Source of the DNA: Mobula hypostoma
Taxonomy: Eukaryota
Length of the DNA stretch: 64,000 nucleotides
NCBI RefSeq assembly: GCF_963921235.1
Contig: NC_086097.1
Span: 37,698,001-37,762,000 of the forward strand
Direction: 5' to 3'
The position numbers and the translations under genes were made by a program. Every line of letters starts with the position of its first letter. The stretch's first letter is position 1. Of this stretch, positions 23,602 to 38,600 are shown piece by piece. Below the pieces are notes generated by a model. That model searched no databases. It saw nothing but the letters and a program-made list of their open reading frames with translations, and was not told the origin of the DNA.

Positions 23602-26600
23602 CTGCAAAAGAGACATGGTTTTAATATGACCAAGTAAAATTACAAAATTTGTATAAACAAAATCATTTTGGCAATAGATAGAGAAAATGAAACCCCCAAG
23701 TCCCTGTAGTACTACCAATGAACTTCAGTATCAAATCTAGGAAGGAACTGCTATGGAGATACAAGAGACTGCAGATGTTTGAATCTGGAGCAAAATATAA
23801 ACAGGGTCTCAGCCTGAAACATCAGCTCTCCCTCTGTCTCCACAGATGCTTGAAGAACTGCTACGATTAGATTGTCTGATTATTATATTTTTAAAAATCA
23901 AAATTAATCATTTATTTCTTTTCATTTACAGTACAAGTGAATCAACAACATGGCTAATTAATAGTGAACTGGTTGAAGGTTAAATCAGGAGTGTCAATTA
24001 AATGGAGCTACTAATGATTAAGCTTTCAAAAATAATAAAATTCATTGTTTTACAAATAAGCTAATAATAAAAACAATGGTATAAAAATAAAAATCTCCCT
24101 TTTTGTGGTACTCACCAGACTGGGATCATAGCCCAAGGAAAAAAGATATGGTTTCTCCTGTAGTACCGACTGCTGCCATTGGGGCTCTGATACCATTCCA
24201 ATGAACCAATTCCTATCATACTCTTCCAAGTAATTCACTAATTCAGCAAAACTTTCAACTGGACCTAGACTGGCTTTGTCAAACATCAGCTTGAAGGTAT
24301 ATCTATTAGGAAACAAAATGTTGTACCATTACACACTCTGCATTTCAGAAACTACACGTATCAACATGCAGGTTTACTACGGAATCAGTAAGTTTGAATG
24401 GTAGAACACTTATATTGGAGCATCATAATTACCTGAATGCCTTTAGTGCAAGTGTAAGCAGCTCTGGTTTTTGAGTCAACCAATCTAAACCCAAAGACCA
24501 TGGTATATCACCGGAATACAGTTTGAAGATCTGATTGGGGCTTGGGATTGTGGAGTCAGTTCCAAACATTATACCACAACAAGTCATTACCACATGGGAA
24601 TACATATCCTTCAAAGTTGTATCTCTTATCATTTCCAAGATAATAGAATGTTTTTCATTACAGTGAAAAACATTCAAAAGACCAAGAACAAATGAATACC
24701 AATCCTCAGGGAAGGATTTCAACAGTTCTTGAAGCAGCAGTGGCAAGAACGGCCCTGATAACCAATTCTCTGGCACTTTCAGCTTATGTGAATAAGGAGA
24801 ACTGAAAACAACAACTGGGACCACTTCATGGGTATTTGTCTCCATTAATACACGTTTTCCTTTATCAGTAGCAGGAAGTCCATATACGGGTGTTCTTTTT
24901 GGTAATTCTTCTTCATTTATATCAGAGGTTAAGCTTTGTGTTTCAAGGCTCCCAGGAATCGATGCTATAATAGGTTCTGTTGTCCTTTGCTGCATACCTG
25001 TAGTGTTTTTAACTAGACATATGTCAGACTTTTTTCCTATGGACTCTTGTTCAAATATATCGTCATCTGACCAATCAGGAAATATTTCTGAATTTATGCT
25101 AAATGAATCTTTATGATCTTTAGAAGATTCTGTTTGCATTGAAGTAACTGTATTTCCTTCTAACCAGGTAGTATTTTGTTGTAGTGGCTGATTGTCTGGA
25201 ATGTTTTCAGATTTTGATTTATTATTTATGTAATGTAAAAGTACCCATATAAAAACTTTAGCAAAATCTTCCTTTAGCTGTTTTAAATTTTCCAGAGAGT
25301 CAATGATTCCTGTTAATACATTCCGTGCATCAGAGTAAACCTGCACTGGTAGTACAGTGGATGGAGTCAAAATGTTGCCAAAATGTTGATTTAAAAAGCA
25401 GGTTTTTGCTTGTTCACTTTGTTCAAAGCTCATTTCAAACACTTCATCCACTCGTCGAGCTTCTGCGGTATGGCAAGATGTTTCTTGCAGCTCTAAACCC
25501 TGACAAAGAAAAACAAACAGCAACTTCTTGTTAAATATAAAAGTCAGTCTGAAAATGACAATACATACCATCTTACATCAAGAGTTGAACAAACAAAGAA
25601 ATGAGTATAAGCAATGCCAAGGACAAAAATTTGAGTCTATCATCAATGTTTGGCACCACTGGAAAATAATACCATGAAGTGTCACAAATCAGATAACAAT
25701 AGGGCAGTTAATAACTAGTATAAAATATATGCAGTTATTTATTGGTATCTGAACAATTAACCAAACACAGGTCCTCTTTATGTTATGTCAGTTCCATTCC
25801 TATAAACCAGGGGCCCACGGACCCTCTTGCTTAATGGCATTTGTCTATGGCATAAAAACGGTTGGGAATCCCTGCTACAAACTGTTTGCAAGTCAAAAAT
25901 ACAGTTGCAAAGTGGATTCCCATGCGCCAGACAACACCTGCAGCCTTGCAGTAGCTGGCAAATCCACGCTAGTGTCCCAAATCTCATTCATGTGTACACA
26001 ATTTGAGCATTTGTAGGCTGATCTATAAAGATTAAATTTTGCTACAAAATGATTACCAATACTGTGTATCCTACTGTATTATGATATAAAAGAATAAATT
26101 TGACAATGACATGTTTTGTTAGACACTGGAGTAGAGTCTGTCAAAAAGTACAGTTGTGTTGAGATCAGATTATTGCTGTTCATCAAAACACACATTGCTA
26201 GGATGATATGAATTCTTCAGGAATCTAGTGAGTTGTAATTATCTCCCAAGAGTACAGTTTTCATGCAAGTTTATTATCCTGTCCAATATGTCTCATCCCC
26301 AATTTTCAGTATAACATGAAATGTTGATATCCAGACTCATTCCACATGACCTTGAATGATAGAAAGCAAGCAACACACATCAAAGTTGCTGGTGAACGCA
26401 GCAGGCCAGGCAGCATCTATAGGAAGAGGCGCAGTCGACGTTTCAGGCCGAGACCCTTCGTCAGGACTAACTGAAGGAAGAGTGAGTAAGGGATTTGAAA
26501 GCTGGAGGGGGAGGGGGAGATGCAAAATGATAGGAGAAGACAGGAGGGGGAGGGATGGAGCCGAGAGCTGGACAGGTGATAGGCAGAAGGGGATACGAGA

Positions 26601-35600: not shown

Positions 35601-38600
35601 GGGAAAGAAAGGATTCCGAAATAATCCAAAAATAAATACACCTTGAATCTCCTGGCAAATCTTCCATCCTACTAATGTTATTATTAAGATATAGCTTAAT
35701 ATGGTCTGTGCACTTATTCCAGATGTAGTTAAATTTTTTGCAAAATAATGCAATAATCCAGCTTCAACAAGTATCATTACAAGAAGAGTAATATAAATCA
35801 AGATTTCTTTCTGGCGAAACTGCCATGCAATTCGATGATTATGTTTAGGACATTCTAAAGAGGCATCAGTTGTCTTGCAGCAGAATCTGAATGAAGTCTC
35901 TATCTGGCTGAGATCAAGGCTAAGAATAAATCCCATTCCAGTTGTGAAGAGAACTACACCAAGAGAGGTGGGAATAAAGAATGTTGCGATCACCACTCCA
36001 GTCGACAGAGTAAATATAACAAACAGCCTGCAGAAATAAAAAGCTGAGATGTAAAATGTATCATAGCATTAGTCAAGATTATTTGTTTCTTAGGAAGCCA
36101 TTAATTGCATAAATCATGCAATTGTCTTTTAAATACACACCAATAGCAGCTGCTTCTTTGTAATATTGTACAAAAAGATGAGTGATTAAGGTTTCACAAA
36201 CTCAAAAATCTGTAGATGCTGGAAATCCAAGCAACACACTCAAAAGGCTGGAGGAACTTAGCAGACAAGGTAGCATCTATGGAAAGGAATACAGTCGTCA
36301 TTTTGGGCTGAGACCCTTGAAGGGTTTCAGCCTGAAATGTTGACAGTACTCTTTTCCATAGATGCTGCCTGGCCTGCCGAGTTCCTCGAACACCTTGTGT
36401 CTGATTAAGGTTTTCTATCTGATTATTACCCATTTTCATTTTGTTTTTGTTATCGTTTACTCCGTTGCTTTCTATCCCATCATCATCCGCCTTTATTGTT
36501 CTCTTGCCCCTTTTCCGCATCTTAAAACCTGGTCATCTCTAGCCATTTCCAGTTCTGATATGGATCATTGACCTGAAATCTTAATTTCTTTCTTCTCTCC
36601 TCTGTCCTGTAGGTTGCAGGTCTGCCTAAACCTATATCCAGCATCTCCAGTTTTTGTTTTAGATATTCAAATTTGAAGGTTTTAAACATACTCCAGGCTG
36701 TTAAAGATGTTTTGGGGGGGGGCGGTTTATAAATAAAATCAGATGAAGGCAACAGTCCCAATGAAGCAGGCTGTTTAGAACTGAAATTAAGAGAAATCCT
36801 TTGGTGAACCTTTGGAATTGCCCAGCGAGGAGAACTTTGGGGGCTTATTCATTGATTACAGTCAAAATAAAGACCGACATGTTTAAGTTTTCTTTTGGAA
36901 TCCTGGTTTTAGATTTCCCACATTTAAATAACAAAAAGTGGCCTTAAAAGTGGTAATGGAGGCTCCATTGCACAGGATCAAAAGAAGCTACAGAAGGTTG
37001 TAGACTCAGCCAGCTCTGTCACTGGCACAAGCCTCTCCACCATCGAGGACATCTTTCAAAGGCAATGCCTAAATAAGGTGGCAACCATTATCAAAAAACC
37101 TCATCACCCAGTTCATGCCTTCTTCTCATTACCACCATCAGGGGGATACTGAAGCCTGAAAACCCACACTCAAAGGTTTTAGGGTCGGCTTTTTCCCCTC
37201 TGCCAGCAATTTCTGAATGGTCCATGAACACTACCTTGCAATTCCTCTTTTACACTGTTTATTTTTTTAATTGTAATTTTTATGAGTTGCACTGTATATT
37301 TTTCACTTAAGAGACTCGAACTCTTTCTACAACTGCTGCTTGACTTCCAGCATCCAGTTTTTAAAAAATTTTCAATCACAAGAGAGCCTGTTAAGTCAAC
37401 CGGTGAACTACAATGATGAATAAAGTTAATTATCCAGTCAGCTAATAGGGCAAAAGATTCCAACAATTAGCTACTGCATCCTGGGTTTGAGAGCAGAATA
37501 ACAATAATCACCTTCCTACCTATGACTCTCTGACTTAATCACAAGAGATTGGAGTACTACTTAAATAAATTAGTCCACCGACATAACCAGTGAAGTCTTA
37601 CACATGAATCTATGACCAAAGTAGTGAAGTGGCTCAGACAATGTTTTAGTAATACCTCCGAAATTTAAAACCTTCAGTAATGAGAGGGTGCGAGAGAACT
37701 TTAGAAACAAGAGTAGTACCTTAATGGCACAGACTCAAGAAATAAAAAATTAGCATGACATATTTCAATATTTAATTTGGGGTGTGTTTGTTAGGTAGTA
37801 GCTAAACAACACTGCAAATAAACAGTATCAAATCACAGCAGGTCGGGCAGCATCCGTGGAAATGATCAGTCAACGTTTCAGGCCGGAACCCTTCATCAGG
37901 ACTGAAGAGTGAAGGGGCAGAGGCCCTATAAAGAAGGTGGGGGGAGGGTGGGAAGGAGAAGGCTGGTAGGTTCCAGGTGAAAAACCAGTAAGGGGAAAGA
38001 TAGAGGGGTGGGGGAGGGGAAGCAGGGAGGTGATAAGCATGACCCCAACTTCTGCAGAGTATTTTGGGTTTATCAAATCACAGTACAGTACAGGTAGTTT
38101 GGGAATTGCCTTGCTACAAAGATGTCTTGTTCTTTTCACATGAAGATTTCAAATCTTACCTTACATTGGTTGCCATGGGTGAACCTCCAAATAGAAATTC
38201 CAAGACTTGCTCAAGAACCCATAAGATGAGTGCATCCACAGGAGGCAAAATACCAATTGCCCAAAAGACAGGCAGAAATACAAAAATAATGTGTAAAATC
38301 TGAGCTGTTTGAAGCAGGATTGGATTTACAGTAAACCTGAAGGGGAAAAAAGTCAAATATTGAATCCTAAAATATCCTAGAACAAAATACTCTAGCTATA
38401 GGATGTCCTTAATCTAAATCCAACATCCAATTTGCTTAGTTAAGATTAATTGGAAGATACATATGCCACAAACCAATAGAGATAGATTTCTAATGTTATA
38501 GAAACATAGAAACATAGAAAATAGGTGCAGGAGTAGGCCATTCGGCCCTTCGAGCCTGCACCGCCATTTATTATGATCATGGCTGATCATCCAACTCAGA

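What the first reader, a model, noticed from the sequence alone, without database searches (positions are those of the whole stretch)
26432..37904. Two intact minimal hammerhead ribozymes in sense orientation inside PCNX4 introns could dimerise within one pre-mRNA
Seen: the minus strand (PCNX4 sense) carries UAGUC-CUGACGA-AGG[7]CCU-GAAACGUC-GACUG at 26432-26469 and CAGUC-CUGAUGA-AGG[7]CCU-GAAACGUU-GACUG at 37867-37904. Both have complete catalytic cores, paired stem I and a self-complementary ACGU in place of helix III. Established: Penelope-like elements carry minimal hammerheads with palindromic helix III that cleave efficiently as dimers. Inference: these two copies, ~11.4 kb apart and flanking five exons, could pair in cis and cut PCNX4 pre-mRNA (predicted cuts 26437/26436 and 37872/37871). 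That would be a retroelement-derived self-cleavage control on a host gene.
Basis: partly seen in the sequence, partly recalled or inferred. Interest (0 to 1): 0.7.

Follow-up and report, generated by a model that had tools for sequence, protein, structure and literature searches.

The report
Penelope transposon hammerheads in PCNX4 introns
The two self-cutting-RNA motifs in this ray gene's introns are real, but they are leftover ends of a jumping gene whose motif occurs about 76,000 times in the genome, and they likely sit there by chance rather than controlling the gene.

Summary
Both motifs are real, at the stated places, sense to PCNX4, with five exons between them. They are ends of two separate Penelope-like element (PLE) insertions. 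Copy 1 ends a 951-bp young fragment with a GIY-YIG frame, and its 38-mer occurs 29,805 times. Copy 2 is an older 207-bp stub of another subfamily that lacks its 3' tail. The core pattern has 76,068 hits, so about 9,000 same-strand pairs within 11.5 kb are expected. In 1.8 Mb inside 30 other genes, intact motifs lie 20 sense to 15 antisense at genome-average density, and two of those genes carry closer sense pairs. The dimer is sequence-compatible but predicted about 9 kcal/mol less stable than the monomer folds. Published animal PLE hammerheads cleave poorly, and a lizard one cleaves only with the PLE protein. Verdict: known motif, chance pairing, control of PCNX4 not supported; cleavage itself is untested. 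The scan noted this family before, in this genome and in other shark or ray genomes.

The parts
26432..26469 (-). Copy 1: minimal type I hammerhead motif of a young PLE, predicted cut 26437/26436 after GUC; in the intron between coding exons 7 and 8
   Evidence: identical 38-mer occurs 29,805 times in the genome and in both terminal repeats of full-length element L242
26364..27314 (-). 951-bp 5'-truncated PLE insertion: end of the ORF, then the 3' terminal repeat (about 26795-26367) with hammerhead and 3' tail
   Evidence: 98.1% over 947 bp to L241 and 97.0% to L242; 99.1% to a copy in L032; 16 other copies continue upstream of the 27314 point
26765..27316 (-). 183-aa open frame with GIY-YIG endonuclease domain, the C-terminal part of the PLE ORF
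   Evidence: PF01541 E 7.6e-05, 23.4 bits against cut-off 22.6; 98% identical to the end of a 390-aa frame in L032
37867..37904 (-). Copy 2: minimal hammerhead motif of a second, older PLE subfamily, predicted cut 37872/37871 after GUU; in the intron between coding exons 2 and 3
   Evidence: the subfamily pattern has 3,642 hits
37836..38042 (-). About 207-bp PLE terminal-repeat stub carrying copy 2; stops about 30 nt after the motif and lacks the family's 3' tail
   Evidence: 91-95% identity over 207 bp to subfamily loci; 10 differences in 203 compared positions from the majority of 30 loci
36228..36389 (.). Fold-back pair of two degenerate PLE ends; the 36318-36389 arm is antisense to PCNX4 and lies in the same intron as copy 2, 1.5 kb downstream
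   Evidence: fold-back -88.7 kcal/mol, duplex of this arm with copy 2 -81.8 and with copy 1 -98.3 kcal/mol
23353..41547 (-). PCNX4 coding span; approximate exons 41547-40855, 38341-38159, 36029-35514, 31053-30949, 30279-30145, 29691-29320, 27513-27409, 25498-24432, 24304-24098, 23601-23353
   Evidence: exon 7-8 joint in contigs of 4 of 4 runs

Best explanation
The two motifs are the hammerhead-bearing ends of two separate Penelope-like element insertions in PCNX4 introns, and they are likely neutral passengers that seldom or never cut the pre-mRNA. Shown: both come from PLE terminal repeats. A full-length relative (L242) has a long open frame with a reverse-transcriptase match between two 421-bp direct repeats, each carrying copy 1's exact 38-mer, 3.5 kb apart; that is the setting in which the dimer-type motif is maintained. 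Inferred: reverse transcription starts at the 3' tail and often stops early, which scatters short ends with an intact motif through the genome in random orientation, about half of the intronic ones sense. Inferred: copy 2 came from an earlier subfamily and copy 1 from a very recent one, so the pair was assembled by chance. Predicted: each copy folds on itself as it is transcribed, using the CUGA core in a non-catalytic helix, or pairs with antisense PLE ends in the same transcript, so the two-molecule fold is rarely reached. Any rare slow cut inside an intron would likely be tolerated by co-transcriptional splicing.
For: Abundance: 37,885 + 38,183 strict hits in 3.476 Gb, control 0; 29,805 exact copies of copy 1. 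Chance: P(two or more on one strand in 18.2 kb) = 0.017, about 9,000 same-strand neighbours within 11.5 kb expected genome-wide, and 17 such adjacent pairs among the first 100 listed hits. No purge from introns: in 180 loci from 30 genes (1.798 Mb) intact motifs are 20 sense to 15 antisense, 26 to 28 with a looser descriptor, all homologues 178 to 180, core-intact copies with no inverted partner within 1.5 kb 20 to 14, and density is 20.0 per Mb against 21.9 genome-wide. The same arrangement occurs elsewhere: 3 sense pairs at 4.3-4.6 kb in two spectrin-repeat genes, against 2 antisense pairs. Different ages: copy 1 is 98-99% like its kin, copy 2 has 10 differences in 203, four of them C-to-T at CpG inside the motif. 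Folding: the heterodimer fold is 9.0 kcal/mol above the two monomer ensembles, and opening each copy in context costs 12-15 kcal/mol against a gain of 7.8. Templates were mostly uncut: 61 of 74 young-family matches span the cut site and 4 start within 3 nt of it, against 1.9 expected, p = 0.12. Spliced contigs cross the copy 1 intron in 4 of 4 runs from 3 studies. Literature: PMC4209133 (monomer inactive, dimers and trimers low), PMC11167929 (lizard PLE hammerhead inactive without PLE protein, no RNA-seq ends at the cut site), PMC2995048 (reports that introns cut by a hammerhead are still spliced).
Against: Cleavage was not measured. The dimer is fully sequence-compatible, and 11.4 kb is only about three times the natural 3.5-kb spacing. 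Nearest-neighbour energies ignore the tertiary core and would also penalise dimers known to cleave; I had no positive control. The intron sample is 0.05% of the genome, comes from three gene families with spans inferred from Pfam hits, and excludes only a sense share below about 0.39. A depletion test detects harm, not a rare beneficial use, and very young copies have had little time to be purged. Core positions are slightly less mutated in sense than in antisense copies (9.8% against 12.6% of sites, p = 0.025 per site; p = 0.098 per copy). Two of copy 2's four CpG differences, including U17 (12 of 30 loci), are common in its subfamily and may be inherited rather than decay. Whether the sequenced animals carry these insertions was not shown.
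Confidence: 0.85

Rival explanations
1. Protein-assisted collateral cutting. In cells where this young PLE is expressed, its protein would bind tail-bearing ends such as copy 1 in host pre-mRNAs and chaperone dimer formation with PLE RNA or another copy. Some PCNX4 transcripts, like those of thousands of other genes, would be cut in an intron with little effect on mRNA output.
For: The lizard PLE hammerhead cleaves only with its protein (PMC11167929). The family is young, with many near-identical copies holding open frames of 800-900 aa. Copy 1 keeps the full 3' tail and the exact motif of full-length elements. Family sequence is very abundant in the laid contigs. Tolerance of slow intronic cuts would explain the lack of strand bias (PMC2995048 passages).
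Against: Most genomic copies span the cut site even though they were copied from protein-bound PLE RNA (61 of 74). The same paper found no RNA-seq ends at the cut site and that uncut RNA is the main template. Retroelement proteins usually prefer their own transcript (own knowledge). Copy 2 lacks the tail.
Confidence: 0.1
2. One reading: the two copies pair in cis across five exons and cut PCNX4 pre-mRNA as a host-adopted control, excising or destabilising the exon 3-7 block.
For: Both cores are complete, sense to the gene and cross-compatible. They are the only intact motifs of 14 homologues in the window. Conserved intronic hammerheads in amniotes are a precedent for domestication (PMC6155905 passages).
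Against: The arrangement is expected about 9,000 times by chance and seen in 2 of 30 other genes. Copy 1 is about 1% diverged from mobile copies, leaving little time for domestication. An antisense PLE end in copy 2's own intron pairs with either copy far more strongly (-82 to -98 kcal/mol) than the dimer fold (-12), although that arm has its own fold-back partner. The copy 2 intron is complete 9.6 kb before copy 1 is transcribed. Amniote intronic hammerheads are canonical, active alone and conserved, unlike these.
Confidence: 0.02
3. Any effect of these copies on PCNX4 RNA would come from long sense-antisense duplexes between PLE ends (RNA editing, back-splicing or exon skipping), not from catalysis.
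For: Antisense PLE ends lie in the same transcript at 36318-36389 and 23803-23865, with predicted duplexes of -66 to -98 kcal/mol with the two copies. Inverted repeats are known to promote editing and circularisation (own knowledge).
Against: The duplexes are only 60-85 bp and about 80% matched. The 36318 arm has its own adjacent partner. No back-splice joint of PCNX4 exons was among the joints listed, though both tables were cut.
Confidence: 0.03

Closest known systems
Minimal type I hammerheads (min-HHR) in terminal repeats of metazoan PLEs (Cervera and De la Pena 2014, PMC4209133)
   Same: [quoted passage not shown]
   Different: Helix II is 3-4 bp, shorter than the 7-8 bp of the Schistosoma families. 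Position 11.1 is U in both copies. The copy number (76,068 strict hits) is about ten times the largest counts in the parts I read (about 9,000 in Xenopus).
Poseidon PLE of Anolis carolinensis (PAc) and its hammerhead (PMC11167929)
   Same: Vertebrate endonuclease-bearing PLE with RT then GIY-YIG, hammerhead in the terminal repeat, 3' tail, templates mostly uncut
   Different: PAc cleavage was measured and needs the PLE protein; nothing was measured here. Clade assignment of the ray element was not tested.
Conserved intronic hammerheads of amniotes (RECK, C10orf118/CTCL, DTNB; PMC6155905 and PMC10761166 passages)
   Same: Type I hammerhead in an intron of a protein-coding gene, thought to descend from retroelements
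   Different: Those are single, conserved across species, canonical and active on their own. These are minimal, dimer-dependent, lie in recent high-copy insertions and show no sign of constraint.
Non-LTR retrozymes (bioRxiv 10.64898/2026.07.22.740005; PMC7229834 listing only)
   Same: PLE-derived type I hammerheads in vertebrate genomes
   Different: Retrozymes are tandem repeats and are reported as under-represented in Xenopus introns. These are dispersed truncated ends, and no intron deficit was seen in my sample.

Membership tests
Minimal PLE hammerhead (min-HHR) | Complete core C3-U4-G5-A6-N7-G8-A9, G12-A13-A14, A15.1-U16.1, H17 | tested here: met
   H17 is C in copy 1 and U in copy 2
Minimal PLE hammerhead (min-HHR) | No helix III; palindromic 15.2-16.2 allowing a dimer | tested here: met
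   ACGU in both copies; a nested two-strand fold can be built
Minimal PLE hammerhead (min-HHR) | Extra nucleotide after A9 and a G10.1-C11.1 pair | tested here: inconclusive
   Extra A present. The pair is G-C in 10 of 14 distinct family rows and G.U in 4, including both window copies.
Minimal PLE hammerhead (min-HHR) | Helices I and II supported by covariation | tested here: inconclusive
   93.7% of cells paired but 0 of 9 pairs with two-sided changes, and not above shuffles; the 15 sequences are too closely related
Minimal PLE hammerhead (min-HHR) | Self-cleavage as a dimer | not testable with these tools
   Needs an assay; folding energies disfavour the dimer
Endonuclease-bearing Penelope-like element | ORF with reverse transcriptase followed by GIY-YIG endonuclease | tested here: met
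   GIY-YIG in the window fragment above cut-off. RVT_1 at E about 4e-05, below the Pfam cut-off, in 890-900 aa frames of two 97-98% identical relatives, with GIY-YIG in the following frame of L241.
Endonuclease-bearing Penelope-like element | Direct terminal repeats (pLTRs) carrying a hammerhead | tested here: met
   L242: 421-bp repeats at 97% identity, each with the copy 1 38-mer, 3.5 kb apart; the window copies hold only the 3' repeat
Domesticated intronic ribozyme (RECK/CPEB3 type) | Single or low copy and outside an active mobile family | tested here: not met
   29,805 exact copies of copy 1 and 3,642 of the copy 2 pattern
Domesticated intronic ribozyme (RECK/CPEB3 type) | Orthologous conservation across species | tested here: inconclusive
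   No relative genome was available; contigs did not cover the flanks of copy 1
Non-LTR retrozyme | Tandem repeat units each with a hammerhead, no coding sequence | tested here: not met
   Both are single insertions; copy 1 carries ORF sequence

The most novel reading that the evidence does not exclude
This ray genome carries tens of thousands of intact, dimer-competent hammerheads inside host introns, about half of them sense. When the young Penelope element is expressed, its protein switches them on in trans and cuts nascent transcripts of thousands of genes, PCNX4 among them. That would be a transposon-triggered, transcriptome-wide intron cleavage that splicing mostly tolerates.
Probability: 0.07. 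Interest if true: 0.65.

Novelty: new member of a known kind. Interest (0 to 1): 0.12.

Why it matters
As most likely read, it matters little: it is one more pair of PLE ends. The useful by-product is the scale and the strand test. About 76,000 intact-looking minimal hammerheads are tolerated in both orientations in introns, which argues that this motif is close to silent outside its own element, in line with the protein-dependence reported for a lizard PLE. If the trans-activation model held, PLE activity would directly affect host RNA processing genome-wide.

Tried and rejected
An Rfam scan at E<=1 gave three weak microRNA matches and no hammerhead; the microRNA matches were set aside as repeats and fold-backs. 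No RNA holder was listed as such by the run search; all runs are contigs, so RNA ends at the cut sites could not be tested. An empty-site search for copy 1 in related animals failed for lack of cover at 26242-26313 and 27322-27393 in all four runs; copy 2 was not examined at that resolution. Covariation on 15 family copies was uninformative. The per-site excess of intact cores in sense copies (p = 0.025) treats sites as independent and fell to p = 0.098 in a per-copy permutation on 217 of 226 copies, 9 being dropped for a short tail; I do not count it as constraint. Inverted pairs push a strand count towards 50:50, so counts were repeated without them at three distances: 33:26, 20:14 and 12:11. 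A pile-up of 5' ends at the cut site, which cleavage would predict, was not found. A retrozyme reading was rejected because there are no tandem units. Lunse et al. could not be read. No positive control for the dimer energies was available among the sequences held. Supplements of PMC4209133 (kinetics in fig. S6) and of the bioRxiv preprint were not seen and may bear on activity and on the one cartilaginous fish sampled.
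Full report
Observation. Both motifs are present as described on the minus strand, at 26469-26432 and 37904-37867, with predicted cuts after GUC and GUU. The host gene is PCNX4: a 356-aa exon is 99% identical to a protein named pecanex-like 4 of Mobula birostris, so the window is likely from a devil or manta ray. Mapping that protein gives ten coding exons between 41547 and 23353, and places copy 2 between exons 2 and 3 and copy 1 between exons 7 and 8, with five exons between them. 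The motifs exceed chance (6 matches against 1.51 expected, 2 exact; 0 in reversed controls). They are the only intact ones among 14 homologous copies in the window. Rfam gave no hammerhead match.

What they belong to. Copy 1 ends a 951-bp fragment (27314-26364) whose 5' part encodes a GIY-YIG domain. Sixteen other copies continue upstream of that point, so it is 5'-truncated. It is 98-99% identical to other copies. Two relatives have 890-900 aa frames with a weak RVT_1 match (E about 4e-05, below cut-off). One of them, L242, has 421-bp direct repeats each carrying copy 1's exact 38-mer, 3.5 kb apart. An atlas search of a 390-aa family frame gave clusters at 0.93-0.96, most carrying HTH_animal and some GIY-YIG or RVT_1 on a minority of members. 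This is the anatomy of an endonuclease-bearing Penelope-like element, and the full element is the natural home of a dimer-type hammerhead. Copy 2 is a 207-bp stub (38042-37836) of another subfamily (3,642 pattern hits). It lacks the 3' tail and differs from the majority of 30 subfamily loci at 10 of 203 positions. Four differences are C-to-T at CpG within the motif. Two are clear minority states (C in 23 and 26 of 30 loci) and two are common variants (U17 in 12 of 30); none of the 30 has T at all three of positions 7, 11.1 and 17. Those loci were chosen by a pattern allowing C or T there.

Is the pair special? The strict core pattern has 76,068 hits in 3.476 Gb and copy 1's 38-mer 29,805. Under a Poisson model an 18.2-kb gene span has a 1.7% chance of two or more on its sense strand, and about 9,000 same-strand neighbours within 11.5 kb are expected. 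Among the first 100 listed hits there are 17 such adjacent pairs. To test for harm I located 30 other genes by clustered Pfam hits (spectrin, myosin head, HECT) and fetched 180 stretches, 1.798 Mb, inside their spans; not every span found was fetched, or fetched whole. Intact motifs were 20 sense and 15 antisense (95% interval for the sense share 0.39-0.74) and strict hits 20 and 16. A looser descriptor gave 26 and 28 and all homologues 178 and 180. Core-intact copies without an inverted partner gave 33:26, 20:14 and 12:11 at 0.3, 1.5 and 3 kb. Density was 20.0 per Mb against 21.9 genome-wide. Two spectrin-repeat genes hold three sense pairs at 4.3-4.6 kb, closer than the PCNX4 pair, and one of these includes copy 2's exact 38-mer; two antisense pairs were also found. 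Against my reading, cores are slightly less mutated in sense copies (129 of 1,320 sites against 147 of 1,166, p = 0.025; fully intact 51 of 120 against 40 of 106, p = 0.50), which is not significant per copy (p = 0.098). The sample is small, drawn from three families, and tests harm rather than benefit.

Could the dimer form? In sequence, yes: stem I strands and ACGU pair across the two copies in a nested fold. Energetically it is disfavoured in the nearest-neighbour model. Each monomer folds with the CUGA core paired to the ACGUY strand (-11 and -9.2 kcal/mol, z -1.2 and -0.9). The heterodimer fold is -12.2 against -21.2 for the two monomer ensembles, and opening each copy within 30-200 nt of flank costs 12-15 kcal/mol against a gain of 7.8. 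An antisense PLE end at 36318-36389, in copy 2's intron, could pair with either copy at -82 to -98 kcal/mol, though it has its own fold-back partner (-88.7). These energies omit tertiary contacts and lack a positive control, so they are supporting only. The genomic record agrees: of 74 young-family matches that reach 45 nt past the cut site, 61 span it by 10 nt or more, 4 start within 3 nt of it (1.9 expected, p = 0.12), 8 start downstream and 1 at -8. Most templates were therefore uncut there, or religated. Arms of inverted pairs are counted separately in these numbers.

RNA. No holder was on record as RNA and all were contigs, so ends could not be tested. The exon 7-8 joint, which skips the copy 1 intron with canonical ends, is in 4 of 4 runs from 3 studies. 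One contig with no differences from the window crosses that intron, and a 5,020-nt contig of a more distant animal crosses both introns. This shows that normal mRNA is made, not that cutting is absent, and the animals' insertion status is unknown.

Literature. PMC4209133 (parts 1-2 of 4 read) defines these minimal motifs, finds them mostly as single truncated copies, and reports no monomer activity and low dimer or trimer activity. PMC11167929 (passages and the second half of the main text) shows that a lizard PLE hammerhead cleaves only with the PLE protein, is not needed for insertion in vitro, and leaves no RNA-seq ends. PMC6765202 (passages) repeats the low rates and lists Lunse et al., whose title says such variants cleave as dimers; that paper was not held. 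PMC2995048 (passages) reports that introns cut by a hammerhead are still spliced while a fast HDV ribozyme blocks splicing; I did not read the two primary papers. PMC6155905 and PMC10761166 (passages) describe the conserved amniote intronic hammerheads. The bioRxiv preprint 10.64898/2026.07.22.740005 (part 1 of 5 and passages) reports tandem retrozymes under-represented in Xenopus introns. Five searches listed no paper on shark or ray PLE hammerheads in introns; the library lacks most subscription papers. Earlier scan notes describe the same family as debris in shark or ray introns.

Verdict. The pairing is ordinary for this genome and nothing points to control of PCNX4. Most likely these are neutral passengers (0.85), then protein-assisted collateral cutting (0.10), duplex effects (0.03) and the cis regulatory dimer (0.02). 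Interest 0.12; new member of a known kind.

Noticed in passing
L031-L210 (young PLE family, 1.798 Mb sample): 5' ends of truncated copies pile up 22-44 nt upstream of the cut site, at the 5' edge of the hammerhead (33 of 74 matches; 24 of the 33 flagged as joined to an inverted copy, both arms counted). The structured motif may stall or redirect reverse transcription.
   Followed up: partly
L242:468-4396 (minus strand) and L241:949-4482: Near-full-length PLE copies about 98% identical over 3.5 kb, with 890-900 aa open frames; many more frames of 800 aa or longer are listed. The family is probably active or very recently so.
   Followed up: partly
window 34689-34778: Fold-back of two ends of a further PLE-like family with a longer stem II (intact relatives in L072 and L196). 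It gave the weak mir-3119 match; no intact core here.
   Followed up: partly
window 52872-52954 (+): Young-family copy with A6 changed to G in the core, outside the PCNX4 coding span.
   Followed up: no
window 38596-40305 (-): 569-aa open frame with RVT_1 (E 1e-33) in the first coding intron of PCNX4, sense; looks like a CR1-type LINE (own judgement).
   Followed up: no
window 31861-32901 (-): Three consecutive frames that read like a broken Tc1/mariner transposase (recognised by eye, not tested), with similar sequence at both flanks near 31600 and 33100.
   Followed up: no
window 26386-26457: Summed contig depth over the hammerhead and tail is 58,000-663,000 against single to triple digits on exons. 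Family ends are very abundant in these runs, though summed depth is no measure of expression.
   Followed up: no
L043-L044 and L071: Two spectrin-repeat genes carry intact sense motifs 4.3-4.6 kb apart (three in a row in one of them); better test cases for in-cis dimer cleavage than PCNX4.
   Followed up: partly
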